DNA of 61,293 nt, counting the filler, from Sphacelaria rigidula (Eukaryota): the NCBI GenBank assembly GCA_964200075.2. It is 7 parts of 7 records of this genome, joined end to end, with 100 filler letters (N's around TTAATTAATTAA, not from the genome) between each part and the next. Parts side by side here need not be neighbours in the genome. Positions count along the whole stretch, not along the records: positions 26,314 to 34,983 come from CAXNAA020010437.1; 6 more parts are not named here. One strand, given 5' to 3'. Numbering within the stretch: position 1 is the first letter of the stretch; each line of letters starts with the position of its first letter. The notes below the pieces were generated by a model. It ran no database searches. It worked only from the letters and a program-made list of their open reading frames with translations, and was not told the DNA's origin. A program made the position numbers and the translations under genes. Shown piece by piece: positions 4,691 through 35,718 of this stretch.

Positions 4691-7600
4691 CCCCACGACC
4701 TTTTCTTACACATAGACCCCAGCGCTGAGTAGGAGATTCAGCCCTTACGCTAGCGATTAGGCTACGCTCCGCACAGGCAACTTCAGGGTTTATTCAGACA
4801 TAAAAAATGGACTCCGGAAATCAAGTAGACAACATTATGACCAAGATACAAGATGCCGACCCAGACGCGGTGAGGGAGATACTAACAGGATACGTCCAGG
4901 AGCAAGAGAAACAGAAACAAGAACTGCGACAACAAAGTCAAGCACAGGAAGAGGATCCAAGACTGGCAGCGCGCGCGTCAGCAACAAGAGCTACGCCCCC
5001 CCAGCAACGATTCCAACCTACGACTACTACAGCAGCATTTCAAGACGTTCGAGACGCACCCCTGCATACACAGGGTCAAGCCCAGATGGTACAGTCTGGC
5101 ATTTTGAGGGTACGTTCGCATAACAGTATTGCAGCGTGGGATGGTACGGCAAAGAGTGGTGAGGATGTAAGAGAAAAGTTCATGGTTTTTAAGCTACAGA
5201 TGACAGCGTACTTTAAGCAAGAGTTCTGCGAAGAGGCTCTTTACACATCTTTTCCAATTAGGGTACATTACGATAGTGAGCGGGATTTGATCGAGAGGTA
5301 CGGAACCGAGTTGGTAGGAAAAGCCACCAGAGCATGGACTATCCTTGTCGAAAAAATTATTTTTAATCCGCTTGTGCAACAGTTAGTAAGACTGGGAAAC
5401 CCCAGCGAGGCATGGAAATACGTTGTGGACTACTACACCGTATCCCCAACCACCGAAAGGGCACAATTGGACCATGCATGGCAGACCCTTGACATGAACT
5501 TGGGAGAGGACCCCCGTTTGTATCTAGATAGAGCAAAACTGATACGGTACAAACGTACTAAGCTTGGAGTAGTGATGTCAGATGCAGATGCGAATCGGCA
5601 CTACATTCGCCGCCTCTCAAGTGACTTCGACATCGTCCATGGTGTATTGCTTGCTTTTGATGAAGTAACTACAGATACCCTGGAGCGCAAGGTGATGACG
5701 GCGCATGGTGAGATGGAACTGGCCAGGTGTAGGGCAGGAAGGAATCAGGATGGTGTACAAGGCCACGCGCTCGTCGCTACCACTGGGGGTGGCAGAGGTG
5801 GGGGCGTGTTGCAAAATGGAAGACAACAGGGCGGTGAGAGACGTCGACAACAGGGTGATGTTTTTGTCATTTCCACAGTACGAGCCATCACGATGACTCT
5901 GACTGTTACGCACAACGAAACATGCACGCACAAGAAAGTCGTGGTGATCGTGGTGCGTGAAATGGTGTTCGCCAGCAGCAATACCAGAGTACAGACAGTT
6001 TTGGGGGACGAGTTGGAAGTGGACGCGGTAGGATTCTCACCCAGTCACCGCAGCTCACTCAGCAACAACAGCAGCAACAACGCCAGCAACCCCAGCAGCA
6101 TCAGTAGCAAGCGAGACGTGGAGGACGGGGCGCAAGACGTGGATTTGGTCACAGGTACGATGCTTCGGGGCGCGGGGGTGGGAATGCTTACCCCGGCAGC
6201 CAACTTCCGTATTATAACCCGCCACAAGGTGGCTATGACTATTCAGCTTATCCTGATGGTCTATACCGCCCTGTGGGTAATGAACCCCCAATTCACCACG
6301 CCGACCCCCGTAAACGATGCATCACATGCGACGAACTGGGCCACATGCATACTTTTTGCCCATGGTGTAGAGTGGTGACGCCGCAAGTCGATTCAGGGGT
6401 ACGTCATGCGCATCCTACCTAAAAACAACCTCGTCACGGAGGACAGCAGCCCCCCCCTTGGAATCATTCCTACGGATCGGTCAACACCGTGCAACTTTAC
6501 GGTGACCAAGGGGGGAACGAAGAGAGCAGCCACGACGAACAACAGTGGAATGGAACGGATGAAGACGGGTGGGTGTTGGAAGACAGCAGCGACTTCAGCG
6601 GTGCAGGTTATGCGCACTGTATCCAGTTTCCCCGCAACCCTCCGCAATTCTCCGCAGCTGCCATCAACAACTAGATCCAGTCATCACCGCAGCAAGTTGA
6701 ACTTCAACTTCAACACCATCATCAACTGCAGCAGCAACAACAACCTCATCATGCCCAACCTGATTCCAACATGTCTTCCTCCGGTTCAGCTGCATCCCCT
6801 GCGCCGCTTCACCTGTGCATGGCACATTCTGTGTCCCGTGGTGAGTCACGTTTTGAGTTGGGTGATTTTACTTTGGGAGTTGCTTTGCTTAACCAGAGTG
6901 GGTCGGGGGTTGATGTGGATGATGGTACAGAGGAAAGAATAAGTGACAATGGTGCTTCACACCACACCACTGGTTCAGTGGCTGGTATGTTTGATTGACG
7001 CCCACCCCCGAAAGGAAATGAACACGTGATAGTGGGGAACGGAACAATTCTCCCTGTCAGACCAGTAGGGAGTTTAAAGCTCAAATTCCACATGGGAAAT
7101 TCCACCGCCCCGACATCTGTCGGTGCGTCATCAGAATTTTTCGTGCAACTGACTGACGTTTACGTACTTAAAGGAATACACTTCAACCTTTTTTCTCTGC
7201 ACCAAGTGCAGAAGAAGCATGATGTACTCTTAACTGAAACAGGAGTACATATGTTTGACGGTAGGCTTCGCTTCGATCGCAATGAGCGGTCTTCGTCACA
7301 AAGGGCCACACGTTTACCGTCAACATATGAGAACCCCCCACTTGCCGTACCAGCTGTAAGTGTTGTCACTGCCCCTCCCCCCAGTGTTGGTGTACAGTCC
7401 GCTTTACCAGCTGCAAGCGTTGTAACTGCCCCTCCCCCAAGCGTTCGTGTCCAGTCCGTTCCTCCGGCGAACGTGGTAACTCCGAGTGTTGGTTTTCAGT
7501 CAGCTTCACCGGCAAGCTTTGTACCTGCTCCCACGAATGGTGTTGGTTCTCTCCGTGCAGTACAAGGGCTTCACTGTCCAGACTTAGGTGTTTTCAAGGA

Positions 7601-8671
7601 TGAAGCCCTGATGGCTGGATTCGACACGACCCCCCCCCAGGATTTTTTTCCGCGTTTCATGAGTGAAGGAATGGGAGTTGTGTCTAAAAACGGGATTGCC
7701 CTTGCTATTCTTGCCCCCAGCCCTCACCCATTTTCAGTTGGGAAACCAAAGAAAGAAGTCGACATTAATTTTTTTCACGTTTCCCTCCCCCACCTTCATG
7801 AGACGTCACTCAGAGAAACTGCAAAACAACACGACATTTTATTGATGGGGGTACTAGCTCCATGTGCTGGGTGCTTGGAAGCGAAGGGGCAGAGAGCAGG
7901 TATTCCGAGAAGCCTGGGAACGAGGGCGACGACTGTACTAGGCAGGGTGCATCTCGACCTCACCGGTCCACACCCGCGTACTTTGGGCGCTTCAACCCGT
8001 ATGCTGGACTGCGTCGACAGCAAGTCGCGCTTCATGATGTTTTATGGCCTCGCACGCAAGTCGGACACGCTGGCCAAGGTGAAACGTTTCATCGCCGACG
8101 TCAGCGCCATCGGTACCCCGGTTGTTTTCGTATGGACAACGGGGGCGAATCCACCTCCCACGATTTCGGTGCCTTCTGCGACGATGCAACGATTCGTAGT
8201 GAATACACTGCCCCAGACACCCCCGAGCAAAACGCTGTCGTGGAAAATGCAATTTGGAGGGTGATGAAGGGCGGTCACGCTGCCCGTCTCGAAGCGCGAC
8301 GTCTGTTACCGGAGTGCCGCTTCGACGACATACCTCACCTGGGGGAGAACATGGAGCGCCTGTGGCTGGAGGCCGCGGTGTGGGCAGCGGGCGGGTTCAA
8401 TCGTTCCGCTACTACGGCGAACCCGGCAAGACTGTCGCCGTATGAAGTGTTCACCGGCAAGCGCCCGCCGCTACAGATTGTGCCGTTTCTGCAACCCAGC
8501 ATGATACGAGTCAACCGCCGAGGCAAGATGGATGCTCACTCCGTGGCCTGCCACTACCTCAATAATGGCAGTAACTATTCTTCATCGACGGTCAAGGTCC
8601 TGAAGGCTGCTACCGGTGCCGTCTGCTACACCAACAACGTTGTCTGAACGGTACCGCGTGTGGCACTGCAG
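4691..8671 (+). mobile_element. Degenerate Ty1/Copia internal region (gag, protease, GAG-pre-integrase, integrase), 3' cut by contig end
   Basis: gag ORF from 4807; Zn knuckles at 5865-5906 and 6318-6359; protease ISDNGASHHTTG (~6940-6975); HVSLPHLH...CAGC; integrase RVHLDLTGP...RMDNGGE...TPEQNAVVE. Integrase directly after protease is the Copia domain order. Confidence 0.9.
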
Positions 8672-11036: not shown

Positions 11037-14000
11037 TCTCAACGTTAGGTTAGATGATGCCTTGTTCCAGAAGCTGGTGGAGAGCCAATGGGAGCACGAG
11101 CGAAAGGCGGCGAGTGGGAACGGGCTCGACTGCGACGGGTTTGTTCGCCTCTTTAATACCATTTGGACTCCGGCGATCTCCTTCGGACGGCATCTTAGAA
11201 AGGCGGCCGGTCGCGGAGACGAAGAACTTGGTGAGTAAGTACCAAGGGGCGAATGATATGCGGTCGGGCTCTGATTTGTCTCGTGAAGCACCTTAACACA
11301 CACACGCGCGCGCGCAAACACACACACTGTATCAGCGGCTTTTTTGGGAACGAAAGTTCGAAGTCGATGCCGTGCTGATAATCTATGAACAGTAGCCAGC
11401 GTTTAGGGGAACAGAGGAGAAATTGGCACTTGGTATATAAACGATGCACTCGGTACCAACCACGTTGTGAGCTCTGGCGATTGATATCCAGGAAGGTTAT
11501 TCGTCCGCATATCTACGTCGATGGCGGCTGGGTCGTCGAACATGCCAAACAGTTGGGGCGTGACGATTTTGTTCCGTGTTGCCCCCTCTGTTCAATTTTC
11601 GTACTCTTCAACGCTCGGGGTCCTCGACCGGTTTAAAATGTGACGGCGCGCACTAAACAGTGTGTTGATGTAGCTTGATATTCGGTGTTGCTCACACCTG
11701 AGGGAAGTAAGTGGCTGTAGATCAGGGTCAGGCACACTGGTGGCTGAACGCACTTGATTGTAACTGACGCTCTTGCGCGTGGGTGTCGATTTTGCTCGGA
11801 CTTGGCAACAATCTTATCACGTCAGTCGGTGAGTAAGCGATTTACTTCTTCGTGGACACGTCTTCGCTCTGAACCGGGAGAGTATGCCACGAATTACCCA
11901 TAGTCTTGGATTACAGTCGCAACTGATAAATTGCTGAGCTCTCCCGCCCAATAATTTTGAAGAGTCTGTTTTTCTCGTTCCTGTGGGCTTCAATGGAGCC
12001 ATTTGAATCACTGTTACAGAATGGACGGCGTGGGGTCACCGCATACAGTATTTCTAGACCAATACACTCAGTCTGAACTCCTATTGTAGCTTAGAAGCCG
12101 TACTTGATCTTCCGATCGTCATCTCATCTCAAGGTTGTATCGCCCAGTCGATGTCGACCGCATTTATCTCGGAATTGGGAGACTTACATACATTACGAGA
12201 TTTAGGCACCATCTATTGTATTCCACGTAACTTTTCTTGTTCAATATGTTTCTTCAACTACAGCTGAATTTTCAGTGCGACTGCATTGTACTTACTGAGT
12301 CATCTGACAACGGAGCCAGCACAAGCTTTGGTGTGCTCCTCTTCAACTATTCACTTGTGTCGGAAAACTACAATATTTGCTTGCTGCCTTATGGTATACT
12401 TGTCGTCTAAAAATGTCGCACCACCCGTTGTGGACTACACCACGTTTCGACTGCGTACACTCTACGATGTACCGCATTTTTTTTCACATCCGGCACGTGG
12501 CACCGTTTTCGGACATCGCGATGCGATACAAAAAACACTTTGCCGTTGATTATGTGGCTCGCGTGCGCCTTGTTCGCCCTCGCGCACCGCGCCAACCATC
12601 AGTGCGAGAGCTGATTTTACGGGGGTGCAACCCCAACACTGGATCGGGTACTGGAGAGACGGCGCTTCACACGATGGCCGCGCATGGACAAGTGGACTGT
12701 GCCCGGACTCTGAAGGCACTGTCCGGGGCAGAGTTTATGGTGCAGCCGAAGGACAAGGTTGGCTATCCTTGTGCGATGACGAAATCCAGGCGGCGACGTA
12801 AAGCTAGTAAAACCGCCACATGAGTTCTTGGCTCTTGTGCATGTCATGGTGTACCGGGGAAAGCTGTGTTCGGGAATCAATCCTGTTACACCGCAATCCG
12901 TGTTGTGATCGATGGAGCAAGTAGATGTAGCAACCGGGAGCCGAAGCCGAGGCACAATGTTGAACGAGGCCCGTATGTTCTTGTGTCCGGCAACAGCCTA
13001 GTACGCCACCCAGGATGATGAAAGCTTTGATGCTCGAAGTTGGCTGTTGTTCATCATCTCACGTTTCGATGGATTTGCTCCACGCCCTCCTATCCGTCAG
13101 CCGTCGCTCAGAATTCTCGCCTTTTGGTCGAACGCTCACCCCCTGCTCTCTTCTACAATATGTCCAGGCGGGATGGACCCCTTTGATGGTCGCAGCGGGA
13201 AATGGACACACCCCATTCATGCGCTTCCTGCTGGAGGAGGGAGCGGACCCGCGCATTGCAAGCGAGAGCGGTGGGTAATTGTGCCGGGCTACACGTGCCA
13301 GAGCGTGATTGCTGCCACATAAAAACTCTGAAATACGTGCATATAGTACGTAGGGTCTTACGTGTTGTGTACTCGTCGAGTCGCCGTAGCTGCGCATCTC
13401 TTTGTCGAGGACTGTTATTCACCGCTCAAAACTGCTGTGCACGTCATGATCTTGTTTAGTTTTTTTTTTTTACATCGACACTCGTAAGTGTCGCGTATGG
13501 TAGATTCTCGTCGCATTCGTGATGACCACGAAGTGTGTTTATATGGGCGTGCTCATCCACTGCGGTCCGGTTTTACGTAAGTCACTCGTGGTTATGTCTG
13601 ACAGGCCGGACAGCTATGCATCGCGCGGCGGCCAGGGGCAGGGAAAACGCGTTGAAGACATTAATTTCGAAGAAAGCCGGCGTAAGTCGATATTTTCTCG
13701 TCCTGTTCGGCGTTTTCGGTTCTACAGGCGCCGGGTATTCAAAGCAGTGTTTCTTGTTCTTGTGTTCGATCTTCGCAATGATGTTCAAAAAGTGCACTGT
13801 GCGATCGCGACTGCTCGCTGGCGGTACATGGAACCGCAATTGCGTGGAGGAAGCAGTAGTCAGATGAGAACTTTCATGCTATCTCGTTGCATTTTTTCCG
13901 ACACGGATCTGTGTGTTGCCCGCTTCGAATGTTCAAGCACGATGCTTGCGGCGAAGTGGGTCGCTGGCTTTACGGGTGAGAACGTCTATTTGTAGCGAAA

Positions 14001-18638: not shown

Positions 18639-18884
18639 TGGTTGCGTAACTGACGTGTCTGTTTCGCCAGACTTTGTGATACTGTGTGCTGCATCCGCTG
18701 CGGTCCTCTGCTGGCGTGTCCCCAGGCGTGAGTTAGTGAGCGTAGAAGTCCAGTACTTCGGGAAAGGCGTGGTTCGGTGTAGCACGTCTGAACGCATCTC
18801 AGCGGGTGCGGTGCTCCGGCGCCAATAGCTAACAAAAGCTACAACTACAACGCGTCCGTTGCACAGGAGGAGGGAGAGAGCTTG

Positions 18885-20255
18885 ATGATTCAAGCACGGG
18901 GCGAAACACAACGCTATGGTATTGTGGGACGCGCTGATGCTGAACGTGCAGCACCAGGTAGCGCAAGGGATAGCAAAAGTAACGATACCAGCATGATGCG
19001 GAACCCTCTCACAAACCACTCGGACGTGCTTCAACACTTGATCCCCTTCATCACTGGGGAGGGTTACCTGTTCTTGGCTGGGGCTTCCAAGCACTGGAAC
19101 ACGGCGTGGGGGAGTCGGCCTAAGGAGGCCAGCCTACCCGTTGCGGTGCAGTCGGCAACATGCCTGGCGTGGGCGAGGGATAGCGGATGTCCCTGGGACG
19201 AGAGGGTATGCTGCCTAGCGGCCTTAGAAGGCAGATTGGAGACACTTCGGTTTGCTCGAAGTCATGGTTGTCCTTGGAATGAGGAAACGTGTTCCTCCGC
19301 TGCTAAGAACGGGCATTTAGCGGTGCTGCAGTGGTGTAGAGCTCACGGTTGTCCCTGGGATGAGACAACGTGCGATTTCGCTGCCTCGGAGGGGTATCTC
19401 GAAATTCTCAAATGGTGCCGGGCCAACGGCTGTCCCTGGGATAAGCATGCATGCAGTTGCGCTGCCAGGGGAGGACATTTAGAGGTTTTACAATGGCTGA
19501 GGGCGAACGGCTGTCCCTGGGATGAGGAAGCGTGTTCCAACGCTGCCCAGGGGGGGCAGATTGATGTGCTCCAATGGTTGAGGGTGAACGGCTGTCCCTG
19601 GGATGAGGAAACATGTTCCTTCGCTGCCTCGGAGGGCCGTCTAGGAATGCTCAAGTGGTGCAGAGCCAACGGCTGTCCCTGGAATGAGGACACGTGCGCT
19701 GCTGCTGCCGTTGGGGGGCATTTGGAGGTGCTCCAATGGTGTAGAGCCAACGGCTGTAGCTGGGATGAGGAAGCATGTTGCCAAGCTGCCCTTGGGGGGC
19801 ACCTAGAGGTGCTCCAATGGTTGAGGGCAAACGGTTGTCCCTGGGATGAGAAAGCGTGTTGCTACGCTGCCTTGGATGGGCATCTGGAAGTGGTCAAATG
19901 GTGCAGAGCCAACGGCTGTCCCTGGGATGATCGTACGTGTGCCTTCGCTGCCGAGAACGGGCGTCTAGAAATGCTCCAGTGGTACAGAGCCAACGGCTGT
20001 CCCTGGGATGAGAAAACGTGTAATAACGCTGCGCGTTGGGGGCATCTAGAGGTGCCCAAGTGGTGCAGAGCTAACGGCTGTCCCTGGGGTGAGAATACGT
20101 GTAAACTCGCTGCGTGGGGAGGGCATCTTGAAGTGCTCAAATGGTGCAGAGCCAATGGCTGTCCGTGGAACAAAAACGTACTCGAAGCAGCGAAGAAGGG
20201 CGGGCACGCAGAGGTGGCACAGTGGTGCGTTGACAACGGATGCCCGCATTTCTAG
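18885..20255 (+). CDS. Intronless ankyrin-like repeat protein with ~14 tandem 27-aa CxxAAxxGHLEVLQWxRANGCPWD repeats
   Basis: Single open ~456-aa ORF (alternative ATG ~18993). F-box-like N-terminal segment PLTNHSDVLQHLIPFITGEGYLFLAGASKHW, then 81-bp repeats. This repeat type is known from algae and giant viruses. Confidence 0.88.
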   Translation: MIQARGETQRYGIVGRADAERAAPGSARDSKSNDTSMMRNPLTNHSDVLQHLIPFITGEGYLFLAGASKHWNTAWGSRPKEASLPVAVQSATCLAWARDSGCPWDERVCCLAALEGRLETLRFARSHGCPWNEETCSSAAKNGHLAVLQWCRAHGCPWDETTCDFAASEGYLEILKWCRANGCPWDKHACSCAARGGHLEVLQWLRANGCPWDEEACSNAAQGGQIDVLQWLRVNGCPWDEETCSFAASEGRLGMLKWCRANGCPWNEDTCAAAAVGGHLEVLQWCRANGCSWDEEACCQAALGGHLEVLQWLRANGCPWDEKACCYAALDGHLEVVKWCRANGCPWDDRTCAFAAENGRLEMLQWYRANGCPWDEKTCNNAARWGHLEVPKWCRANGCPWGENTCKLAAWGGHLEVLKWCRANGCPWNKNVLEAAKKGGHAEVAQWCVDNGCPHF

Positions 20256-25680: not shown

Positions 25681-26704
25681 TTCTTGTAACCTGCTCCGTG
25701 ATGATAGCCATAGATAATGGGAGCAATGGGAAGAAACTCAGGGAGGGAGAGAGAGAAGACAACACTCTACTGAACGGTACCGTTCTGCATCGTTCTGCAT
25801 CGTCCTATCCTGTACTGTGCCTTGTTCGGCTTTGTCCATCTATATACATGTACCTTCAGGGCGAGTTCTCTGTTGTGGATTGGCATAGTTATGACTCGAA
25901 AGATGAACGGCAGACCCAGATGACCCACCGTGAAGTATCACAGGTTCAACGCTTTTCAAAGGTCTCGTGTATCATGATCATTGGTGGTGCCCATAGAGGA
26001 AAGGAAGGAAAGCAACGGGGGGAGAGATGAGACAACACTGTAGTCGAATATACTCACACTCAATGATAGATACATGTAAGCAGGCCTGGATGCGAGGGAA
26101 ATGGATTTTATGATTAGACCATGACATATGGGTGAATGACGAGTAATGAGATGAAGTTCTATTATTAAAGGAATACCGGTATTGATGGTAACAGAGAGGA
26201 TACGTTGAGGGGANNNNNNNNNNNNNNNNNNNNNNNNNNNNNNNNNNNNNNNNNNNNTTAATTAATTAANNNNNNNNNNNNNNNNNNNNNNNNNNNNNNN
26301 NNNNNNNNNNNNNGCCGGCGTATAGGAGGGTCCGTTTCATCACGGTGGCCTCAATACACTCGCAGCTAGTTCGTTCGAGGACTGGTCAGCTCGTAAGTCA
26401 CTGAAAATTGAGCACACATGTTTTTTTTCTTGGAATGTGGAGCGGATGCGAGTATTCTCGGATCCCCAATGTGATGAGCGGTGGCAAGCAAAAGAGCACA
26501 AGAGGATCGTCAACTACGAAAAAATCACAAAATGAATAGTTAATACAATACAAGAAACAAATCCTGTGCGAGATCTTCCTCTTACGTGACCCCGGCTGAT
26601 TCGCCCTCACGTACCGAACGGTGTAGACTGGCGTCCAGAATACATGTGATGGCAACACACGCATACTTTTGCCTATCGCCTTAAATACATATAATCAGTC
26701 AGAC

Positions 26705-28955
26705 TTACAGAGTGCCATTGTCCACGACCTTTGTCGTTTTTGTTGCCCAGTACTCATCGATCGCGTTGCCAACAGGGTCAGTATCTAGCCACTCCATTTG
26801 GAGTATGACTTGACCCCCCGGAGAAACTACTGTTGCAGATCGTGCGCCGAGGACGTATGAGCACCATACCGGTTGCACTTGATCGCCGCCGTAGGGGTGC
26901 CCCGGGAGATAGTCAACAAGGAGAGCCTGCGTCAACCATGAGTCGCACGAAGTTGCGGGAGAGGTTCAAGGGCGGAGCGGGGCAAAACTCTTGCGTCTCC
27001 GCCGCTGTTTCACCATACCTCTATCATAGAACACACAACAGGGCGCGGGGGGGGGGAAGCTAAAGAGGGAGTTGATGCAACAGAATGGGACGGTTTTTCT
27101 TTCGCGGCATGCTTTTTGCTGATACCGCGACATGTACCCACAGAAAGGTTTTACGTAAAAAGCAGAAGATCGAGGTGTTCAGCACGATACAGTACAGCAG
27201 TGCTGCACAAACATTTCGCGTGCAAGTCTTTCCATAGTCTCGGTGAAGCTTCACGCCCTCCACCCTCCTCACAAAACAAACGCAATATGGCGCAAAAACC
27301 GCGAATCATCACTCACCTGTGAAGGATGTGTGTAATTCTGGATCCTAGCAACCATATTCAAGCGATCTTGATAAGTTAGGGGCTGACGCACGACGCTCCA
27401 CGACGAGGTCCAGACAGTGCCCACGTCAAAGTTGGTATCGGGTAGCATCGGGTGCGGCTCCGGGCCGTATAGGTGCACGAACGTAGCGCGATCTTTGTAT
27501 TTCTCCACCTACCGCCCGCGACAGCATGGATGGAATGGACACGATGGGGGCGTCGATGGACGATATGAAGGGTTGGGGAGTCGGAGTAAAGAAGACTTGT
27601 AGAGCGGTGCGGTGGTTGGGGTTCGAGGAGGGACGTCGATTCGCTTAAAAAAACATCGCATATTATGCATGACGTTTATTGTGGTCGGGTTTTGAGCAAA
27701 ATCAGTTCGAAGTGTGTGTGTGTAGTCATCCCATTTATTCTGGACGTCGGTCTACACCTTCCGGTATATGTGGGCGCACCAGCCGAGGTCACACAGGGGG
27801 AAGGCCAACACAGGAGTTTTTTTTTTTCTTCGTTTTAGTTCTCCACCTTCCTTCTGCGGCGCTTGCCCTTATTTTTTTATCGCGAAAGAGGTTCAGCGGT
27901 CCCTTTCCCGCGTCGAACGTCAAGCCGATTTTTTTCGTGTACCCACGACATGGTCGCTTTCCACTGTTGGGCACTGTGTGGGACAACACCCCAGGTCTCT
28001 CCGAGACTCTAACCCACAACCCAACCGTCAGAGGGTTTCGAGGTTTCCAAATGAGCCACCGGGGGGACCGGCTCCGAAGTGGGTACAAGAAAATCTTGCC
28101 AAGGTGTATTACACATAGTCGTGGCAATTGTCCAGGCTCAAGGTTAGCGCCACATAACGGCGGAAACCGCATCGTACATGGTCAATGTTGTGTAGTAATC
28201 GGTTAGCCAATCCTTTCTTGTAGAGCATGTTTTTGCCCCTGGGCTGATCGAATGTATCAGCCGACATTGGCCAAAATACAGCACATATGCGCAAATCCAC
28301 CCGAGGAGAAGCAAATCATTTTTGATTTCGCTCAAGACGGGGGCCTAGGGGTAACAAAAAAAACATCGTTCGCTGTGCCAAGGAAGTAATGTAAAGTCAG
28401 GTCGTATCTTGAGCCAAACTTGGAACCCGACTTCTTGACTGTCTAGAACAACTGAAGTCCCTGGCGGGCGGATCTGTGATCCGCAGGTCCATTTAATTTC
28501 TTCTTTTGTTCATCGATTTTCGGGTAGACGTTCCGTTCTTCCGTTCTGATGGTTTCAAAAAAATAAAACGAACCGGCGAACGGGAATATACCCCGGACTA
28601 TGGCGGTTTTGCAGCGACCACGTTGTGCGGCTAGACACACGAGGCCAGGATGCACACAGCATTACACCTACACCGTGTGAGCGATCGCAGTACTGCTCCC
28701 GATGCAACAACACGTACACCGAAATGTAGCTCTTGGTTGCCTGTGCTCGGCGTACGTTTCTTTTTTCCGGGTTGAGTCCGACAAGAAGGACTATATAAGA
28801 ACCGGTGTCTTCGTTCCCACGACGCGGTCAAGGCATACACAAATGCAAAACGGTGCGCACACACGTCTGTTTCCATTTAAAATTTCGAGATTCTCTCCGT
28901 GGTGTTCATCGCTTACTTGACCGATTTTCGTTGACTGAAGCCTATTCAACGTAGC

Positions 28956-28997
<42 letters not shown>

Positions 28998-31900
28998 ACG
29001 GTTGAATCAAGGCGTCTGTGCTTGGGGCCTCTACGGATGCTGGCAACAGCAGCTGTACATCGAGGAACCTCTACCCTTCGCATGGGCCCGTGGAACGCCC
29101 TCCAAATAATTTCCGCGTAACGTGACTGAGGTCCCGTAGCATATCTTGCTCGGTCACGCTACCGTTCATCCCTCCGGTTATTTGTCTGTGTGGGCCAACA
29201 TCCCCCCCCCCCCCAAAACAAACAAACAAACAAATCGAATCGGAACATAAAAGTTATCTTTGCAAAATTCGGGCTACATTAGCCTTTGAAGTGGCTATGC
29301 ACCAGCGGGCTGCCCTTTTGCTGTTTAATTTTTTTATCGGAAGGAGTTTCAGAACTGTTGTTTTTTTTGGAGAGACAAGGTCTACGTAAGACAACAGACC
29401 GCTACTACTCATATACCGCGCATCGTAGGATACCTGTAGATGAACCGATGGACCACGGTCAGCGGCATGGCCGTCTCAGGACAGAATATCGTTGACCGGT
29501 ACATCACAGTAGCTGTGGTTGCGCAAATCGTAGTACATGCGTACGGTCGGGACACAAAGCTGTTGCTGAATATCCGGACAGCGTGGCGTATTTGGCAGGG
29601 GTGGATGTGCAGTAGGCGGTGCGTACTTGTGTGCTTCGGTGGTGCTGTGACTTCGCGTCCTACACCTAGGCTTGGGGAACTTCTGCCCTCCACACCCCAC
29701 GCGCAACTGATCAAGACAAGTGCGATTTGACACACACACACATAAATACATGACAGGCATATAAATGGGGCGGTGAGCGTTTCCCCCTCACAAATCCCCG
29801 CCGCTCAAGCGAGAGCTCGAGGCGTTTAATACCGGGTAAGGGATTGAGACCTCGGTCGGGTTGTGCGTCTTGAACACTTGAGGCAAAGGGATGCCTTACA
29901 GCCCGCTCACTCAACAAGCATAAACTGTTTCAACCGCCTACACTTCAAAAGATCAGACGCCGTTTTCGCACGCACCAGGTCTACTAGCGACCATGTACGC
30001 CTACGCTACCGCCATCCTCCAGAAAATGGCGGGACTGCTAGGGATGGGATCCTCGAAACAGACGGCCGTAAGCTCCAAAACAGTGAAGACACGATGTAAG
30101 AAGTAATTTCACAGAGATTTCGGGATCCATGCGACGGCTGGCCTACGATGCTGCATACGAATATATTTGTATAGAGTTCAACCCGAGCGTGCTTCTATTT
30201 GACGAAACCAACCTGACCGCACCGGGGTACCTTTGCCGTTTGCGCTTCTTATATGGTTGTAGACGGTTCCTGTGTCCTCCCTCTAAAACCGTGATCGTCT
30301 GCAAAAAATGAGGCGTCTGGCCCTGGGATAGGAGGGAACGATTTCAAGCATCGGAGATGAAAGAGTTTAATCTACCCCAGAAACGCGAAGGTTATCTACC
30401 GTTTTGGCTCTCAGCATACGAACGACGACCACTATAAACCCTTACACCCTACCCCATGGTTAATGGCAACTTGTCACCCCGGGGATAGATTCGTTTTATC
30501 TCCTTCTCGAACGCGCCAAGGAGGGGTATTATCTGATGTTTTGGTGTAGTAGCGTACGAAGGACGACATTCCTGGGGACTGGAGAAAGCTATCACTACAA
30601 CCGATATCTCCCACCTAATTATATTTACGATGACTCCCCACCTTTCACACCGCGCGGATAACAGTATTTCCTCCCCTCTCTAAATACGCTTAGGAGCCTG
30701 TTAGCTATGATTTTGGCTCGTAACGCGGCGATGCCTGTGAGGCCCGGAAAGGCGCTCATTATTTTCCCCTGTAATCTTGTGACAACTCCCCACCCCATCC
30801 ATCATCCCGGGAACAGGGGATCCTGAATACAGGAAATGAGATTTTCTTGTGGGAAGGAAGTAAGGTCGAAACGCGTACTCGTGAAGCCGAAGAGCAGGCA
30901 GGCGGTGAATAATCCTTCGAGTACGGTGTCGTACCGTGGAACCCTAGGGTAATACAGTGCAAGACACTCCATCCTTACAGTATATGGTAGTGCCGTGTAG
31001 TAGTACATCATGACACAGTCGGTATTGCGAGAGCAGTGAACAATGTGTGAGAAGAGTTCAGTAGTGCAGTGTCATACATCACCCTGCAAGTACAGCGACA
31101 ACATAATACTAGGACAGACAGTATCGTTCGTTATGGTGATACATATGGCAGCGCAGTGCAGCATAAATATTACCATCGCTGCACGGGACGGCGTCAACGC
31201 TTATTATTTACTTATCAACCCCCGTGCGAAGCTGCTTCAGGAGCTGGGGCGGGCAGGCACGCCCTGCGCTGCCACGATACTGTCTTCTGCTGCGGTTGCA
31301 AATTTTCAAACACCTTACTCTACCATCGTACGTCAAGGTACGGGCGTCACCTCCCTCAAAATCGTGAGGACCTCAGCTTTCGTTCTCAAATCGTGACATC
31401 CCGATGTTCGCTTCCCCCATCTGGTCCATATTGTCTTTCCCTTGCTCAAAAAAATAAATCAAATGACCAACCATCCATCCATCCATCCAATTAATTAATT
31501 AAATTTATTTATATATATATATTGTATTGGGGTCTGTAAAATGCGTTTTCCGATTTTTGGTCCCCCGGTCTGCGTACAAATCGAGATTGGTGACTGCATT
31601 AAAGTCGGTCTAAGGCAAGCAACAAATAAGTACGCCCCCCTCCCCTCCGGGGATATGACCATTTCATCCTCTCTCCAATACGCTCGGGGGGTCTTGTCTC
31701 GGCAGGTGTATATATCTGCCTGTACAGGCAGATTCGCAGAACCTGCCTGTACCACAAAAACAGTTCCACAACACGTTTGAGCAGACCTGCTGGTCTAAGA
31801 ACGAACACATTTTTGAATTCGCCCGCCACCCTCAATAGAGACAAAGCATCATAATGCGAACAGACCACCACATGTACAGATGGGTTGTTTTTGGTAAGTA

Positions 31901-34122
31901 CCGCTCAAACATTCAGTACTAGAATGCATACGGTGGAAACTGTAATGTACAGTATTGCGATGACCCCAGCGTGTATTGTTCACAAAGGCCCTAAACAAGC
32001 CAAACTTGACCGTCTGCGCAGATGTAGGATGAAAAAACTCGCACTGCTATTCTTTTTGTATCTGTTACAGTCGCTGCACCCACTGTAATGTTTTCCACAA
32101 CCGTGCCAGCCCTCCCCACACACCCACACCTGTGTTGAGGCATGTGACGTCTGGGGAGGATGTATGTACCGGAAACGAACAATTTGTACAAACATGAGTA
32201 GATGGTTTAGCACACTCTATCCGTCGAAACTGGAGCGCATGGCCCCCATGACTGAAGTCTCCTGCCATGATACCTCGACCACCCGGGTGCAGGGATTACA
32301 TTAGATAAAAAAAGAAGAGCAGTGCGAGTTATTTTATCCTACACATGCGCAGACGGTAAAATTTGTTTTGTTGAGGGCTTTATGAACAATGCACGCTGGA
32401 GTCATCGCAATACATTATCCACCGTATGCGTTTTGGTCTGTATTGCGAACAATGTTTGCTGTAGTATAATAGTGCTGTACTGACCGTGTGAGGAGCATTT
32501 ACCAGATAACCCGTCTGTACATACAAGAGCAGATGGATTGCCTGCCCGCCAAGCGTGTATGATGAGTTGAAGGGCTGCTGGTGAGGTTCGTCTCTCTTTC
32601 TCTCTGTGTGTTTGTGGCTTGTAGTACTGTGCGTGTACATGTGGTGGTCTGTTTGTATGATGCTTCGTCTCTATTTAGGGTGGCGGGCGAATTCAAAAAC
32701 GTGTTCGTTGTTAGACTCAGGACTGGCGGGTCTGCTCAAATGTCTTGTGGAACTGGTTCTATGGTACAGGCAGGTTCTGCGAATCCACCTGTACAGGCAG
32801 ATATACGCCGGCCGGTCTTGTCCACGATTTCTTGGCATGTAACTCACGAATGACTATACCCCAGTGGACGCGAGAGATATCCCTGAAATATCCACAGCCT
32901 ACGAAAAGCTGGCCAGGCGGACCATTTTCTACATTCCGCCTCATTTTCTCGGATATGGGTCCAAAGTATTCAAGCCCCGACGGCCGTAGCTGCTGGAACC
33001 CTCATCTAGCGTTTGCACCAGCTCGTGTGACCCAATTCAAACAATAGTTAGGCCGGTGCCAATAACTCGATTTTGTATAATCGATTTCTGGGTTGGAAAT
33101 TTTGATAAAACTATCTGGAATACCTGGACTTTGACACGCCAAATTTACAAAATGGTCATGATCGACATTTTTTCGAAATTCTCACCGAGGATTCGGAGCC
33201 TCCTCTATATTTTCAATCGAACGGAGGTTGGACTACATTTCTCATCTTCATTTTCAGTCATATTCCCCAGCACATTACACTAACCTACCTGATCGTGGAT
33301 TTGCCCCTGCCCCTATACATTCCCTAAGTCAACCCCATCGATCAGATAGGGCCTACGAGGCGGTATGTACGTACATGAAGCGACCACGGCCGGTACACTG
33401 CTGCTGCATTTCATGTATTTGCTCAAGCGTCCGACAAAGCGTCGGACGAAGCGTCGCTGGTTCGAATCACGATTTTTGAGGCCTGATTGCTCGAACGAAA
33501 TGAAAAAGTTTACCGCGGATAAGACATGTCTCTGCGCAAATGTTGCGCATTTCCACGCGGTGCGCGTACCTGGGTTGCAACGCTGAAAACAACGCCCATC
33601 TACTGATACTCACGGTATAGAGTAAATCAATGACGATATTAAAATCAAGTCATTCTCAGATGAATCACCATTTCCTCCGATCCCTCAATTTTTTAGTGAA
33701 ACCAACCACATGTGACTGAATCTTACCAGTTCGTACTCATCCCAGTGGGCCCACTTTTCGACCTGGTCAGGTGCCGCCGCTCCCTGATACCGAGGGCAAG
33801 TAGCCATGCCCCATATCATCACGACAGGCAATCCTTTCTCCTGTAAAGCATCGCTCAGCCGCCAAGCATTTCCCTGCAAGTCATGAAGAGCGAAGTCTAT
33901 CGCATTTCCCCCCTCCGGTATCAAGATATGCGGGGTCCCTCCGTATCCACCCTCGATGCTGTTGCCAGGGTCAAAATTACGTCTCGGGAATTCGAAGCAG
34001 TTAGTCGTGAGGTGTGACTCGGGCCGCAATTCTCCTCGTACGATGCCCAAGAGAGTGATCCCGCGCAGCCATAACAATCCCGACAGGATGTGCTTAAATA
34101 TTGGAGCGGGTTCGCAGGTCAT
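26705..34122 (-). CDS. Iodothyronine deiodinase-like (thioredoxin-fold) protein, Cys-type, 3 exons, ~269 aa
   Basis: Exons 34122-33727, 27508-27317 and 26926-26705 (TAA), all phase-0 GT-AG. The joined protein has a hydrophobic N-terminus, AIDFALHDLQG...LSD...PVVMIWGMATCPRY, ELVEKYKDRATFVHLYGPEPHP, RQPLTYQDRL, LLVD and VVSPGGQV, colinear with deiodinase motifs PLVLNFGSCT(U)PPF / ADFLxxYIEEAHP / QHRxLEDR. The start ATG is inferred. Confidence 0.78.
27722..28073 (-). mobile_element. tRNA-derived SINE, near full length (in intron 1 of the deiodinase-like gene); partial opposite-strand copy ~26550-26660
   Basis: Head with A-box TGGCTCATTTGG homologous to 1-58; 3' end abuts a (TG)n run; GACGTCCAGAATA-like 3' segment recurs at ~26625-26655. 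Confidence 0.6.
28958..28995. repeat. (AG)n microsatellite
   Basis: Visible GA run. Confidence 0.9.
31700..32812. mobile_element. Foldback element with long imperfect inverted arms
   Basis: 31700-31878 is the reverse complement of 32634-32812, and ~31945-32065 is the reverse complement of ~32300-32418. Confidence 0.75.
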
Positions 34123-34864
34123 GTGCGGTTTGTAGCTCCAGGCAACAACGTTACGATGTATACCACTCCCTTCACGTCACCCGAGAGAGTACTCGACTGT
34201 CTCAAAAACTACGCTGAACGGCATCAACTGGCGATAGCAGTTACTCAACTTTACAGATCAAGGCGGTCTCTCCGGCGACACACCTCACGCGTGATGATAC
34301 CCTCTTGCACACCTGGCCCTTGTATATACAAGAAAGAGATACCGTGCCGTGAAGATGGACAAACAAGAAGTCATTTTCTAATCTGGATTTTCATGTCCAT
34401 TGGTCGTAATCCTGGTTGATATCTTGTGGTGCAGCCTCCTGCATGACGCGCTGCAGCGGACGCAAGAAAGGCCAATCTCATACGCTCGAGGGGACGAAAA
34501 CACCGATGGCAACTTAATGACTCTAATTTTTCAGCCTGTGACGAGTAGATCGCCATCTCGTACGGACCGTAGGAGTAGACAAAGCAGCGGAGAAGGACTC
34601 TGATCACGCATTCACCCATGTCTACCGAATCGACACCAACCGTACGAAGCGCAACCGTACAAAAAGGAGTAAACGAAAACAACAGTAGTTGGACCGCCTA
34701 CAGCTCGCAGATCGATCCTTTCAAGGGGAGGTCGCCCGCGCCAGAGGAGCGAAATTCTACTCTATAGCCCTGTTCAAGAAGCGAACAGTTTGCCCATTGA
34801 ACCAGTGAAAAGTCACTCGTTTAATGGGTAAGGCCGTGTATTAGGTCCATTATTATCGAAGATC

Positions 34865-34983
<119 letters not shown>

Positions 34984-35718
34984 NNNNNNNNNNNNNNNNN
35001 NNNNNNNNNNNNNNNNNNNNNNNNNNNTTAATTAATTAANNNNNNNNNNNNNNNNNNNNNNNNNNNNNNNNNNNNNNNNNNNNAAATGCAATGATGACCA
35101 CTACCAGCGTCTGCACGCAGGCTAGATGATGGCCGCGGGTGTACAAATCCCCAGGCTTTTTTCATAGACTAAAAGGTGGGGTTCTGAAAACTGATTTCTC
35201 TGGAGAAAGTCTCTGAGAAAAGTCGTCCAAAATAACTTTTCCCAGAGAGTTATTTCCGTCTATAAGAAGCGGCCTTTGCAGCGCGCAAACAGTCCTCGAG
35301 TTCTCTCAACCCCGTTTGCAGAGAGAAGAGAAGTCTTTACTACAGCATAAACCCTCTCATACTATCGTGAGCACGGGTCTGAACAAAGCAACTCATGCCA
35401 TATAGGCAACTCCACCGGAAGAAATTCAAAACATAAAATCGCACACACCACAAAAAACAAAAAAAATCCACCCAACACTTAACGAACCCCCCCCCATCCC
35501 ATGACACACGAGGTCGACGGTCTTACGACTATGGCATGCAAGATCATGAGTACACCCCCCCATGACACGCCAACTACACGCTGCAGCAGTAGAAGCACAG
35601 ATGACTAACCTTCATCATCGTTCTGACCGCAGGTCGGAACACAGGGATTAAACGGTCTAACGTGACGCGACAATCCGCCCGGTCCGCCCGGGAAAAAAAA
35701 AAAAGAGGCCAAACTAAC

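What the first reader, a model, noticed from the sequence alone, without database searches (positions are those of the whole stretch)
26705..34122. Complete, Cys-type iodothyronine deiodinase-like gene in a probable brown alga
Seen in sequence: three phase-0 exons split by a 6.2-kb repeat-filled intron and a 390-bp intron join into a stop-free ~269-aa protein that the ORF track shows only as fragments. It has a hydrophobic N-terminus, PVVMIWGMATCPRY (TGC codon), VEKYKDRATFVHLYGPEPHP and RQPLTYQDRL. Established: animal deiodinases DIO1-3 use FGSCTUP (Sec), YIEEAH and QHRxLEDR in a thioredoxin fold, and kelps accumulate iodine and contain iodotyrosines, mostly explained through vanadium haloperoxidases. 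Inference: this may be the reductive, de-iodinating arm of an algal iodine or organohalogen cycle, or a secreted thiol reductase. The divergent catalytic region (MAT-C for SCT-U, GPEPH for IEEAH) suggests a distinct substrate.
Basis: partly seen in the sequence, partly recalled or inferred. Interest (0 to 1): 0.85.

Follow-up and report, generated by a model that had tools for sequence, protein, structure and literature searches.

The report
Expressed deiodinase-like gene in brown alga
This is a real, spliced and transcribed gene for a probably secreted cysteine enzyme that is a distant relative of the animal thyroid-hormone deiodinases; brown algae carry several such genes, and nobody knows what they do.

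Summary
Three phase-0 exons on the minus strand (34122-33727, 27508-27317, 26926-26705) with GT..AG introns of 6,218 and 390 nt give a stop-free 269-aa protein. Contigs from 3 of 3 putative RNA runs join exactly these exons; the 1 DNA run does not.

The deiodinase reading holds at superfamily level only. No exon piece hits Pfam T4_deiodinase, and none of 16 brown-algal homologues reaches its cut-off. A 32-member family profile finds mouse Dio3 and Dio2 first in the PDB (E 3.3e-11, 4.9e-9; best peroxiredoxin 1.4e-5, N-terminal hairpin only). Two AlphaFold models of brown-algal homologues rank Dio2/Dio3 first in 4 of 4 structure searches (Z 17.2-17.3, next 14.4-15.0). A brown-algal-only profile gives no significant PDB hit.

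Cys109 aligns with the deiodinase selenocysteine. In 28 of 43 bacterial relatives that codon is an in-frame TGA. The protein keeps the Thr-Cys-Pro, Tyr, Glu-x-His-Pro and Arg positions but lacks Ser167, His219 and the DGW loop motif.

Homologues occur in at least eight brown-algal genera, where the named records are unnamed, "expressed unknown" or "thioredoxin domain-containing" proteins, in other marine protists, and in bacteria. Function is untested: reductive dehalogenation and generic thiol redox chemistry remain about equally likely.

The parts
34123..34300 (-). 5' UTR (at least). It contains a 15-codon in-frame uORF at 34224-34177.
   Evidence: The X1 contig extends to 34300. The uORF was read from the sequence.
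33727..34122 (-). Exon 1 CDS, residues 1-132: hydrophobic N-terminus, family-specific N-terminal module (L-R-P...C-F-x-F-P), Prx-like hairpin and the G-M-A-T-C-P active site.
   Evidence: phmmer with this piece finds 95 proteins at E<=1e-3.
34039..34083 (-). Residues 14-28, a hydrophobic segment (putative signal peptide or anchor).
   Evidence: Kyte-Doolittle mean 1.61. 20 of 24 homologues that could be scored have such a segment upstream of the L-R-P module. No signal-peptide predictor was available.
33997..33999 (-). Cys42 codon (TGC) in the N-terminal module.
   Evidence: Conserved in 41 of 44 aligned homologues.
33796..33798 (-). Cys109 codon (TGC), the predicted catalytic nucleophile.
   Evidence: Conserved in 47 of 48 homologues. 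It aligns with the Sec-to-Cys position of Dio3. The same position is TGA in 28 of 43 bacterial loci.
27509..33726 (-). Intron 1, 6,218 nt, GT..AG, containing high-copy repeats.
   Evidence: Skipped by contigs of X1-X3 and covered by X5. Repeat bins reach depths of up to 185,937.
27317..27508 (-). Exon 2 CDS, residues 133-196: strand beta2, E-P-H-P, the long omega-loop and the helix carrying the invariant Arg181.
   Evidence: 66% identical to P0112.
27449..27460 (-). Codons for Glu149-Pro150-His151-Pro152, equivalent to Dio3 Glu200-Ala201-His202-Pro203.
   Evidence: Alignment of the family profile to 4tr3. Conservation: E 44/48, H 46/48, P 48/48.
27362..27364 (-). Arg181 codon, equivalent to Dio3 Arg225.
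   Evidence: Conserved in 48 of 48 homologues; aligned.
26927..27316 (-). Intron 2, 390 nt, GT..AG.
   Evidence: Skipped by contigs of X1-X3.
26705..26926 (-). Exon 3 CDS, residues 197-269 plus TAA: strand betaD, the P-V-W-C helix, beta3, beta4 and the C-terminal helix.
26861..26863 (-). Cys218 codon (TGC), a candidate resolving cysteine.
   Evidence: Conserved in 45 of 48 homologues. Its role is inferred, not shown.
26461..26704 (-). 3' UTR (at least).
   Evidence: The X1 contig extends to 26461.

Best explanation
An intact, transcribed three-exon nuclear gene of a brown alga (or a very close relative) encodes a 269-aa protein. It has an N-terminal signal peptide or anchor and a thioredoxin/peroxiredoxin-type domain of the iodothyronine-deiodinase superfamily. 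It belongs to an uncurated clade that scores below the Pfam and NCBIfam thresholds. That clade has its own N-terminal module (L-R-P...C-F-x-F-P) and a longer omega-loop.

Shown:
- the gene model and its expression;
- homology to deiodinases at family level;
- equivalence of Cys109 to the deiodinase selenocysteine, including Cys/Sec alternation among relatives;
- retention of the Thr-Cys-Pro, Tyr146, Glu149-x-His151-Pro and Arg181 positions.

Inferred mechanism: the Cys109 thiolate attacks an electrophilic atom of its substrate. The resulting sulfenyl intermediate is resolved by Cys218 (or Cys42) or by an external thiol. The enzyme acts in the secretory pathway or apoplast.

Preferred substrate class (about 0.35): a halogen, as in deiodinases. 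This would be reductive removal of I or Br from halogenated phenolics such as iodotyrosines or halophenols, or reduction of HOI/HOBr-type species, releasing halide. No thyroid-hormone function is implied.
For: Gene and transcript: (joints seen in 3 of 3 putative RNA runs and 0 of 1 DNA run).

Family:
- Exon 1 finds 95 proteins at E<=1e-3 in 1.84 billion.
- The window protein keeps every family-invariant residue.

Deiodinase link:
- NCBIfam 'deiodinase family protein' NF038285 is the top hit in 17 of 17 full-length homologues (E 4.6e-5 to 2.4e-18). It also hits exons 1 and 2 weakly and colinearly.
- Profile A1 against the PDB: Dio3 at 3.3e-11 and Dio2 at 4.9e-9, aligned from the active site to the strand after helix D. 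The best peroxiredoxin is at 1.4e-5 and covers only the N-terminal hairpin.
- Foldseek puts Dio first for both models.
- VIA-align gives Dio2 Z 17.3 and Dio3 Z 17.2 with 167-168 residues aligned, against 14.4 for the next hit.
- In an unbiased scan of 48,161 chains, Dio3 has Z 17.3 against 15.0 for the next hit.
- The nearest ESM Atlas clusters are 100% PF00837.

Bridge to Pfam: exon 1 hits P0046 at 3.4e-9, and P0046 passes PF00837 (27.4 bits, cut-off 27). Bacterial relatives L031 and L011 score 47.8 and 27.0 bits.

Catalytic residue: an in-frame TGA sits at the Cys109 position in 28 of 43 bacterial loci, a Cys codon in 7, and 8 were not parsed.

Secretory location: an upstream hydrophobic segment occurs in 20 of 24 scorable members. 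Lipoprotein-like leaders are visible in bacterial members.

Substrate context, from passages of PMC2866472: brown algae hold mono- and di-iodotyrosine and halogenated phlorotannins, and they store iodide and vanadium haloperoxidases in the apoplast.
Against: - No exon piece hits PF00837. The only Pfam hit is AhpC-TSA at E 0.029.
- None of the 16 brown-algal-clade homologues scanned reaches the PF00837 cut-off. The best are 24.9, 24.0 and 21.0 bits, and 8 of the 15 hit nothing.
- AhpC-TSA is listed more often than PF00837 among the first 17 homologues (15 against 8), although only over its first 33-68 of 124 positions.
- A brown-algal-only profile gives no significant PDB hit: BCP peroxiredoxin 0.013, Dio3 0.036.
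- The Foldseek margin over PrxQ is small for the second model (5.9e-8 against 3.5e-7).
- Dio residues Ser167, Cys168 and His219 are Met, Ala and Pro in the window protein, and the DGW motif is absent. Ser167Ala cuts Dio3 activity by more than 90% (PMC7506546, passages).
- The family is not restricted to iodine accumulators.
- No recurrent neighbour appears in 22 bacterial loci and 146 ORFs. The ORFs scanned in the window show only retroelement and ankyrin domains; none is a haloperoxidase.
- The Dictyostelium deiodinase homologue is not the DIF dechlorinase (PMC3205185, passage).
- The models are of homologues 53-54% identical to the window protein, not of the window protein itself.
Confidence: 0.55

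Rival explanations
1. The protein is a generic secreted thiol peroxidase or thiol-disulfide oxidoreductase. It would be a Prx/TlpA-like redox enzyme that happens to share ancestry with deiodinases and has no dehalogenating role. Cys109 would reduce peroxides or protein disulfides in the ER or cell wall, for example during haloperoxidase-driven oxidative cross-linking.
For: - AhpC-TSA is the only Pfam hit of the window's exons and is listed in 15 of 17 homologues.
- With the brown-algal-only profile, the top PDB hit is a BCP peroxiredoxin.
- Prx, ResA and AhpE structures follow Dio closely (Z 14-15).
- There are three conserved cysteines, as in resolving-Cys mechanisms.
- The authors who found bacterial deiodinase-like proteins proposed a redox function (PMC1088965, passages).
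- Dio residues Ser167 and His219 are lost.
Against: - The AhpC-TSA matches cover only the N-terminal hairpin and the first strand, not the catalytic region.
- The active site is T-C-P with Thr at -1, as in Dio. It is not the Prx arrangement (recalled as PxxxT/SxxC), and there is no CxxC.
- The conserved E-x-H-P, loop and Arg positions are those shared with Dio.
- Dio ranks first in 4 of 4 structure searches.
Confidence: 0.35
2. The protein is a non-catalytic or binding protein that retains the fold, such as a halide or phenolic-binding cell-wall protein, with the cysteines being purely structural disulfides.
For: - It has a secretory-type leader and three conserved cysteines, which could be structural in an extracellular protein.
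- One homologue (P0039) has Asp in place of the active-site Cys.
Against: - The active-site Cys is kept in 47 of 48 homologues.
- It is replaced by selenocysteine (TGA) in 28 of 43 bacterial relatives. Established knowledge is that Sec is used at catalytic redox sites.
Confidence: 0.07
3. It is a gene-model artefact, a pseudogene or a bacterial contaminant.
For: The tool labels runs X1-X3 as RNA only by a guess, and all three come from one study.
Against: - Exact GT..AG joints occur at high depth only in those runs, while the DNA run covers the introns.
- The frame is open and all family invariants are kept.
- Spliceosomal introns and flanking retroelements exclude a bacterial origin.
Confidence: 0.03

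Closest known systems
Animal iodothyronine deiodinases DIO1-3 (Pfam PF00837; structures 4TR3/4TR4 and 9H48)
   Same: - Trx/Prx-type fold with an N-terminal hairpin, a loop, a helix and a strand inserted after beta2.
- The nucleophile sits at the same position after Thr and before Pro.
- The Tyr, Glu-x-His-Pro, Gln and Arg positions are retained.
- There is an N-terminal hydrophobic anchor.
- These are the best structural matches (Z 17.2-17.3, 167-168 residues, 20-23% identity).
   Different: - Cys instead of Sec.
- Ser167, Cys168 and His219 are replaced and the DGW motif is absent.
- In the HMMER alignment the family loop carries 7 more residues than Dio3, with its own P-D-x-N-F-D-x-G and W-S motifs.
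- An extra N-terminal module of about 35 residues with a conserved Cys.
- A conserved W-C before beta3.
- Scores fall below the Pfam cut-off.
- The organism is not known to use thyroid hormones.
Bacterial 'deiodinase-like' selenoproteins and their Cys homologues (Zhang et al. 2005, PMC1088965; NCBIfam NF038285 'deiodinase family protein')
   Same: - They share the whole domain, including the N-terminal L-R-P...C-F-x-W/F-P module and the N-P-x-W-C motif.
- They carry secretory or lipoprotein leaders.
- Cys and Sec alternate at the active site.
- Their function is unknown.
   Different: - The bacterial members mostly use Sec, in G-S-F-T-U-P-P-Y/F.
- Some carry a C-P-x-C after the W-C motif, or an N-terminal multihaem cytochrome c domain.
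- The bacterial Cys forms reach the Pfam cut-off (47.8 and 27.0 bits).
- The algal genes have introns and form their own clade.
- All members score far below the 250-bit NF038285 cut-off (at most 66.7 bits).
Dictyostelium deiodinase homologue didA and the algal 'DIO' selenoproteins
   Same: They are non-animal eukaryotic members of the deiodinase family with no known substrate (PMC2375036, PMC3205185 and PMC7539508, passages).
   Different: - The Dictyostelium protein is a selenoprotein 37-39% identical to animal enzymes (PMC2375036).
- The window protein is Cys-type and far more divergent.
- About 80% of algal DIO members are reported as Sec forms (PMC7539508).
- Whether brown-algal members were counted there would be in supplements that I could not see.
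Peroxiredoxins of the BCP/PrxQ and AhpE types, and ResA/TlpA thiol-disulfide oxidoreductases
   Same: The same overall fold, including the N-terminal hairpin (Z 13-15). There are weak AhpC-TSA/Redoxin profile hits over the hairpin.
   Different: - There is no CxxC, and Thr is at -1 rather than -3 from the Cys.
- 20-35 fewer residues align.
- Sequence-profile hits do not extend beyond about position 40-68 of the AhpC-TSA model.

Membership tests
Iodothyronine deiodinase (Pfam PF00837 T4_deiodinase) | Score at or above the Pfam gathering cut-off (27 bits). | tested here: not met
   - The exon pieces give no PF00837 hit at E<=10.
- None of the 16 brown-algal-clade homologues reaches 27 bits; the best are 24.9, 24.0 and 21.0.
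- Of the 45 proteins scanned, only P0046 passes (27.4 bits).
- The spliced 269-aa protein itself was not scanned.
Iodothyronine deiodinase (Pfam PF00837 T4_deiodinase) | Trx fold with an N-terminal Prx-like hairpin and the deiodinase insertion (loop-D, helix alphaD, strand betaD), as described in PMC11592359. | tested here: met
   The test was run on models of homologues P0014 and P0112 (core pLDDT above 90), not on the window protein.
- Element order is beta2, a roughly 30-residue coil, a helix, a strand, a short helix, beta3, beta4 and a final helix.
- Dio2/Dio3 rank first in 4 of 4 searches, with 167-168 residues aligned against 131-156 for Prx/ResA.
Iodothyronine deiodinase (Pfam PF00837 T4_deiodinase) | Catalytic Sec (or Cys) preceded by Thr and followed by Pro, at the start of helix alpha1. 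| tested here: met
   G-M-A-T-C-P in the window aligns with G-S-C-T-[U->C]-P of 4tr3. Conservation is T 44/48, C 47/48, P 48/48. The position is TGA in 28 of 43 bacterial relatives.
Iodothyronine deiodinase (Pfam PF00837 T4_deiodinase) | The anchor network Tyr197, Glu200, His202, Pro203, Gln218 and Arg225 (PMC7506546). | tested here: met
   The window has Tyr146, Glu149, His151, Pro152, Gln174 and Arg181 at the aligned positions. Family conservation is 37/48, 44/48, 46/48, 48/48, 39/48 and 48/48.
Iodothyronine deiodinase (Pfam PF00837 T4_deiodinase) | Ser167, Cys168 and His219, and the A-H-x-x-D-G-W loop start with Trp207 (PMC7506546). | tested here: not met
   The window has Met106, Ala107 and Pro175. 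The loop reads H-P-M-L-P-D-T-N-F-D-V-G-T, with no D-G-W. P0014 does keep Q-H-R.
Iodothyronine deiodinase (Pfam PF00837 T4_deiodinase) | N-terminal transmembrane anchor and a homodimer. | tested here: inconclusive
   A hydrophobic segment lies at residues 14-28 (Kyte-Doolittle 1.61). P0014 has a predicted helix at 68-89. No TM or signal predictor was available, and dimerisation was not tested.
Iodothyronine deiodinase (Pfam PF00837 T4_deiodinase) | Thiol-dependent reductive deiodination activity. | not testable with these tools
   This needs a biochemical assay.
NCBIfam NF038285 deiodinase_rel | Score at or above the curated cut-off (250 bits). | tested here: not met
   The exons score 14.3 and 15.3 bits. 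The 17 homologues score 23-66.7 bits, although this is the top family in 17 of 17.
Peroxiredoxin (Pfam PF00578 AhpC-TSA) | Score at or above the cut-off (26 bits), with a match over the catalytic region. | tested here: not met
   Exon 1 scores 14.7 bits over model positions 3-39 only. Among the 17 homologues, 2 reach the cut-off (P0039 26.9, P0046 30.2), and the matches end at model positions 33-68 of 124.
Peroxiredoxin (Pfam PF00578 AhpC-TSA) | The PxxxT/SxxC active-site motif (recalled, not from a call). | tested here: not met
   In the window, Thr is at -1 from the Cys and the preceding Pro is at -10 (P-V-V-M-I-W-G-M-A-T-C).
TlpA/ResA-type thiol-disulfide oxidoreductases | A CxxC active site. 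| tested here: not met
   The window has C-P-R-Y. The family consensus is C-P-A-F/Y-Q. Of the sequences listed, only P0084 has S-C-P-H-C.

The most novel reading that the evidence does not exclude
Brown algae use this multi-copy family of secreted or membrane-anchored Cys-deiodinase-like enzymes as the missing reductive half of their apoplastic halogen cycle. The Cys109 thiolate would abstract I+ or Br+ from iodotyrosines, halogenated phenolics or HOI/HOBr made by vanadium haloperoxidases. This would regenerate the iodide pool and limit self-halogenation. Deiodinase chemistry would then long predate thyroid signalling and be an ancient marine dehalogenation system shared with Sec-using bacteria.
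Probability: 0.2. Interest if true: 0.85.

Novelty: new variant of a known kind. Interest (0 to 1): 0.5.

Why it matters
Brown algae are the strongest iodine accumulators known. Their halogen biology is explained almost entirely through oxidising enzymes, the vanadium haloperoxidases. The review I read (PMC2866472, passages) names no deiodinase and mentions a dehalogenase only once, for a red alga.

This gene and its paralogues give a concrete, clonable candidate for a reductive counterpart. They also make the long-open question of what non-animal deiodinase homologues do directly testable. The named database records for these proteins are unnamed, "expressed unknown" or "thioredoxin domain-containing" proteins, and standard Pfam scans miss them.

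If the activity is only generic redox chemistry, the finding is still a useful re-annotation of a conserved, expressed family in which Cys and Sec alternate at the active site.

Tried and rejected
- Word-indexed homologue search with exon 1 among longer proteins found nothing.
- Single-sequence PDB searches with exons 1 and 2 gave only chance-level or no hits.
- No listed sequencing run is on record as RNA. X1-X3 are RNA by the tool's guess only.
- A first genome-contig scan with P0090 found no relative.
- Gene-neighbourhood analysis of 22 bacterial loci (146 ORFs) showed no recurrent partner and gave no functional lead. The remaining 21 of the 43 loci were not scanned.
- Pfam on 19 long ORFs of the window found only reverse transcriptase, integrase and ankyrin domains. 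No haloperoxidase or other halogen-related gene lies nearby.
- A brown-algal-only profile against the PDB was not significant for any family.
- Literature searches for a described brown-algal deiodinase-like gene:
  - 1 paper, a selenoproteome survey;
  - 34 papers, 15 listings seen, all on nutrition or thyroid;
  - 3 papers, all on animal feed;
  - 9 papers, selenoproteome or animal studies;
  - one search was ill-posed and uninformative.
- The spliced 269-aa protein itself was neither scanned against Pfam or NCBIfam nor folded. Only its exon pieces and its homologues were.
- Considered and rejected: a Prx or CxxC oxidoreductase as the family assignment (the motifs are not met), a pseudogene, and a bacterial contaminant.

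Full report
**Observation**

The minus strand between 34122 and 26705 carries three open pieces, which the ORF list shows only as fragments.
- The sequence has an ATG at 34122.
- Exon 1 ends at 33727 and is followed by GTAAGA.
- Exon 2 runs 27508-27317, preceded by AG and followed by GTGAGT.
- Exon 3 runs 26926-26705, preceded by AG and ending in TAA.
- All junctions are phase 0.
- Joined by coordinates in a script, the CDS is 810 nt with a single terminal stop, giving 269 aa.

**Transcript evidence**

Eight runs hold parts of the stretch. I laid four of them on the window.
- Runs X1, X2 and X3 each contain one contig (1233, 1131 and 942 nt; 0 mismatches; depth 311-399). These runs come from one study, and the tool labels them RNA only by a guess.
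- Each contig skips exactly 390 and 6,218 bases, with ends that read GT..AG on the gene strand.
- The contigs run from at least 26461 to 34300.
- Run X5 covers exons and introns evenly at about 30x and has neither joint.
- The joined form therefore exists only where the introns are nearly uncovered. This is what a spliced mRNA looks like.
- In X5, bins of intron 1 reach depths of 60,553 to 185,937, so the intron is indeed full of high-copy repeats.

**Homologues confirm the model**

Exon 1 alone finds 95 proteins at E<=1e-3 among 1.84 billion representatives (43 at <=1e-10). Many are exon-sized fragments.
- Full-length members align with the spliced protein from about residue 25-30 to 255, without gaps at either junction (P0014 1e-85, P0028 5.5e-68, P0038 3.6e-59 in a 95-sequence database).
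- The window protein keeps every position that is invariant or nearly so in 48 homologues. This includes three cysteines: Cys42 41/44, Cys109 47/48 and Cys218 45/48.
- The window holds only this one copy.

**Which organism**

Named homologues come from Scytosiphon, several Ectocarpus species, Pylaiella, Undaria, Choristocarpus and Ascophyllum. Their records read 'unnamed protein product', 'expressed unknown protein' or 'Thioredoxin domain-containing protein'. A further named homologue comes from the dictyochophyte Pseudopedinella.
- The window protein is 48-54% identical to all the brown-algal ones.
- In a quick maximum-likelihood tree of 45 rows it lies inside a starred clade (15 rows, SH-aLRT 99). 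That clade consists of the named brown-algal sequences, three unnamed eukprot models and the window protein.
- It sits there on a long branch (0.86), beside at least three paralogue groups.
- 'Probable brown alga' is therefore supported. The gene looks like a divergent paralogue rather than an orthologue of an annotated one.

**Is it deiodinase-like? Results against**

- Pfam on the three exon pieces gives only AhpC-TSA at E 0.029.
- Direct PDB sequence searches with exons 1 and 2 give nothing.
- None of the 16 brown-algal-clade homologues scanned reaches the T4_deiodinase cut-off of 27 bits. The best are 24.9, 24.0 and 21.0, and 8 of the 15 hit no family.
- Among the first 17 homologues, AhpC-TSA is listed in 15 and T4_deiodinase in 8. 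The AhpC-TSA matches stop at model positions 33-68 of 124, that is, the N-terminal hairpin and first strand.
- A profile built from the brown-algal-clade sequences alone gives no significant PDB hit (BCP peroxiredoxin 0.013, Dio3 0.036).

**Is it deiodinase-like? Results for**

- NCBIfam 'deiodinase family protein' (NF038285) is the top family in 17 of 17 homologues (E 4.6e-5 to 2.4e-18). All score far below its 250-bit cut-off.
- The same model matches exons 1 and 2 weakly and in colinear order.
- A profile of 32 family members finds mouse Dio3 (4TR3, E 3.3e-11) and Dio2 (9H48, 4.9e-9) first among 177,635 PDB sequences.
  - The alignment runs from before the active site, through E-x-H-P and the following helix, to the next strand.
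  - The best peroxiredoxin is at 1.4e-5 and matches only the hairpin.
- AlphaFold models of two brown-algal homologues have cores with pLDDT above 90 (P0014; P0112 with mean pLDDT 93.4). Both put Dio2/Dio3 first in four searches:
  - Foldseek: 3.3e-9 and 6.9e-9 against 7.6e-7 for ResA;
  - Foldseek: 5.9e-8 and 1.2e-7 against 3.5e-7 for PrxQ, a small margin;
  - VIA-align: Z 17.3 and 17.2 with 167-168 residues aligned, against 14.4 with 131-156 aligned;
  - an unbiased scan of 48,161 chains: Dio3 Z 17.3 against 15.0.
- The nearest ESM Atlas clusters are deiodinase clusters in which 100% of members carry PF00837 (score 0.94).
- The chain to Pfam membership is closed by bacterial-type members. 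Exon 1 hits P0046 at 3.4e-9 against the whole library, and P0046 passes PF00837 (27.4 bits). Bacterial relatives L031 and L011 score 47.8 and 27.0 bits.

**Residue-level comparison**

I used the HMMER alignment to 4TR3, my alignment of the window protein to the family, and residue roles from passages of PMC7506546 and PMC11592359.
- Kept:
  - Thr108-Cys109-Pro110, equivalent to Thr169-Sec170-Pro171;
  - Tyr146, equivalent to Tyr197;
  - Glu149, His151 and Pro152, equivalent to Glu200, His202 and Pro203;
  - Gln174, equivalent to Gln218;
  - Arg181, equivalent to Arg225.
- Lost: Ser167, Cys168 and His219 are Met, Ala and Pro.
- The D-G-W start of the omega-loop is absent. In the HMMER alignment the family loop carries 7 more residues than Dio3, with family-specific P-D-x-N-F-D-x-G and W-S motifs.
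- The family also has an N-terminal module of about 35 residues (L-R-P...C-F-x-F-P). It is well ordered in both models, and neither Dio structure covers it: the alignments start at model residues 131-140 and 47.

**The catalytic cysteine**

A motif-based scan of one genome per prokaryotic species returned 43 loci in MAGs of Myxococcota, Gemmatimonadota, Anaerolineae, Dehalococcoidales and others.
- In 28 of the 43, the codon at the Cys109 position is an in-frame TGA followed by an open frame through E-x-H-P. Seven have TGC or TGT, and my pattern did not parse 8.
- A looser pattern saw a stop at that position in 30.
- The motif reads G-S-F-T-[TGA]-P-P-Y/F, close to the animal G-S-C-T-U-P-P-F.
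- Two representatives (P0073, P0090) end exactly before this position.
- Alternation of Cys and Sec at one position is the classical mark of a catalytic redox residue (established knowledge; compare PMC1088965).

**Location**

- The window protein has a hydrophobic stretch at residues 14-28, directly before the L-R-P module.
- 20 of 24 members that my pattern could score have such a stretch; 17 of the 41 examined were not matched and were dropped.
- Bacterial members show lipoprotein-like leaders.
- Some protist members have a C-terminal hydrophobic tail.
- P0014 has a predicted helix at 68-89.
- A secretory or membrane-anchored, extracytoplasmic location is therefore likely, but it was not tested with a dedicated predictor.

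**Function**

Nothing here measures it.
- Context gave no lead. There is no recurrent neighbour in 22 bacterial loci (146 ORFs). The 19 window ORFs scanned show only retroelement and ankyrin domains.
- Two bacterial members carry an N-terminal multihaem cytochrome c domain, which hints at electron supply for a reductive periplasmic reaction.
- Brown algae contain mono- and di-iodotyrosine and halogenated phlorotannins. They keep iodide and vanadium haloperoxidases in the apoplast (PMC2866472, passages). Plausible halogenated substrates therefore exist where this protein is likely to be.
- Against a halogen role:
  - the family is not confined to iodine accumulators;
  - residues important in animal enzymes are replaced;
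  - the Dictyostelium homologue is not the DIF dechlorinase (PMC3205185, passage);
  - the discoverers of the bacterial proteins suggested a general redox role (PMC1088965, passages).
- My estimates: deiodinase-type halogen abstraction by Cys109 about 0.35, generic peroxidase or thiol oxidoreductase about 0.35, and the remainder other or unknown.

**Known or new**

- Cys- and Sec-type deiodinase-like proteins of bacteria have been known since 2005 (PMC1088965).
- A Dictyostelium homologue has been known since 2007 (PMC2375036).
- 'DIO' is listed among algal selenoprotein families (PMC7539508; its supplements, which may list brown-algal members, could not be seen).
- I found no paper describing a brown-algal deiodinase-like family (listings only for most).
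- This is best filed as a new variant of a known kind: a sub-threshold, Cys-type, intron-bearing, multi-copy algal clade with its own N-terminal module.

**Verdict**

Superfamily membership, the catalytic Cys and expression are supported. The iodine role is untested.
- Interest is moderate (0.5). It would be high if halide release is shown.

Noticed in passing
L005-L043 (for example L007:5199, L013:2601): Most bacterial relatives are apparent selenoproteins. 28 of 43 loci have an in-frame TGA at the active-site position (G-S-F-T-TGA-P-P-Y/F), so gene callers split them into two ORFs.
   Followed up: partly
P0090 and P0092 (representative proteins, no locus): Two bacterial members carry an N-terminal multihaem cytochrome c-type domain fused to the deiodinase-like domain. 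P0090 has several CxxCH motifs, and P0092 hits Cytochrom_c3_2 at E 8.4e-5.
   Followed up: no
window 34177-34224 (-): A 15-codon upstream ORF lies in the 5' UTR, in frame with the main ORF. It ends 18 codons before the main ATG and lies inside the transcribed region seen in run X1.
   Followed up: no
window 27755-28025, 31549-31819, 33446-33716, 26400-26670: Very high-copy repeats (DNA-run depth 22,000-186,000 against a baseline of 30). They also have high depth in the putative RNA runs, so they appear to be transcribed repeat families.
   Followed up: no
window 2989-3945 (+), 51086-51979 (-): Retrotransposon remnants: a reverse transcriptase (RVT_1, E 1.5e-24) and an integrase (rve plus Integrase_H2C2). 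Further long ORFs without a Pfam match lie at 4804-8644.
   Followed up: partly
window 18792-20252 (+), 12308-12820 (+): A 487-aa open frame of tandem ankyrin repeats with a recurring G-C-P-W-D/N-E motif (Ank_4, E 5.5e-34), and a second short ankyrin fragment.
   Followed up: no
window ~26215-26310 and ~34860-35035: Runs of N (assembly gaps). The second abuts a long trinucleotide repeat that reads as poly-Q, poly-L, poly-C or poly-A depending on the frame.
   Followed up: no
P0039 (241 aa): One full-length homologue has Asp in place of the active-site Cys (W-T-D-P). It may be a non-catalytic member.
   Followed up: no
P0119, P0037, P0050, P0052 (protist or metagenome members): These longer members add a C-terminal extension of about 200 residues ending in a hydrophobic segment. 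This suggests type I membrane proteins with the deiodinase-like domain outside the cell.
   Followed up: no
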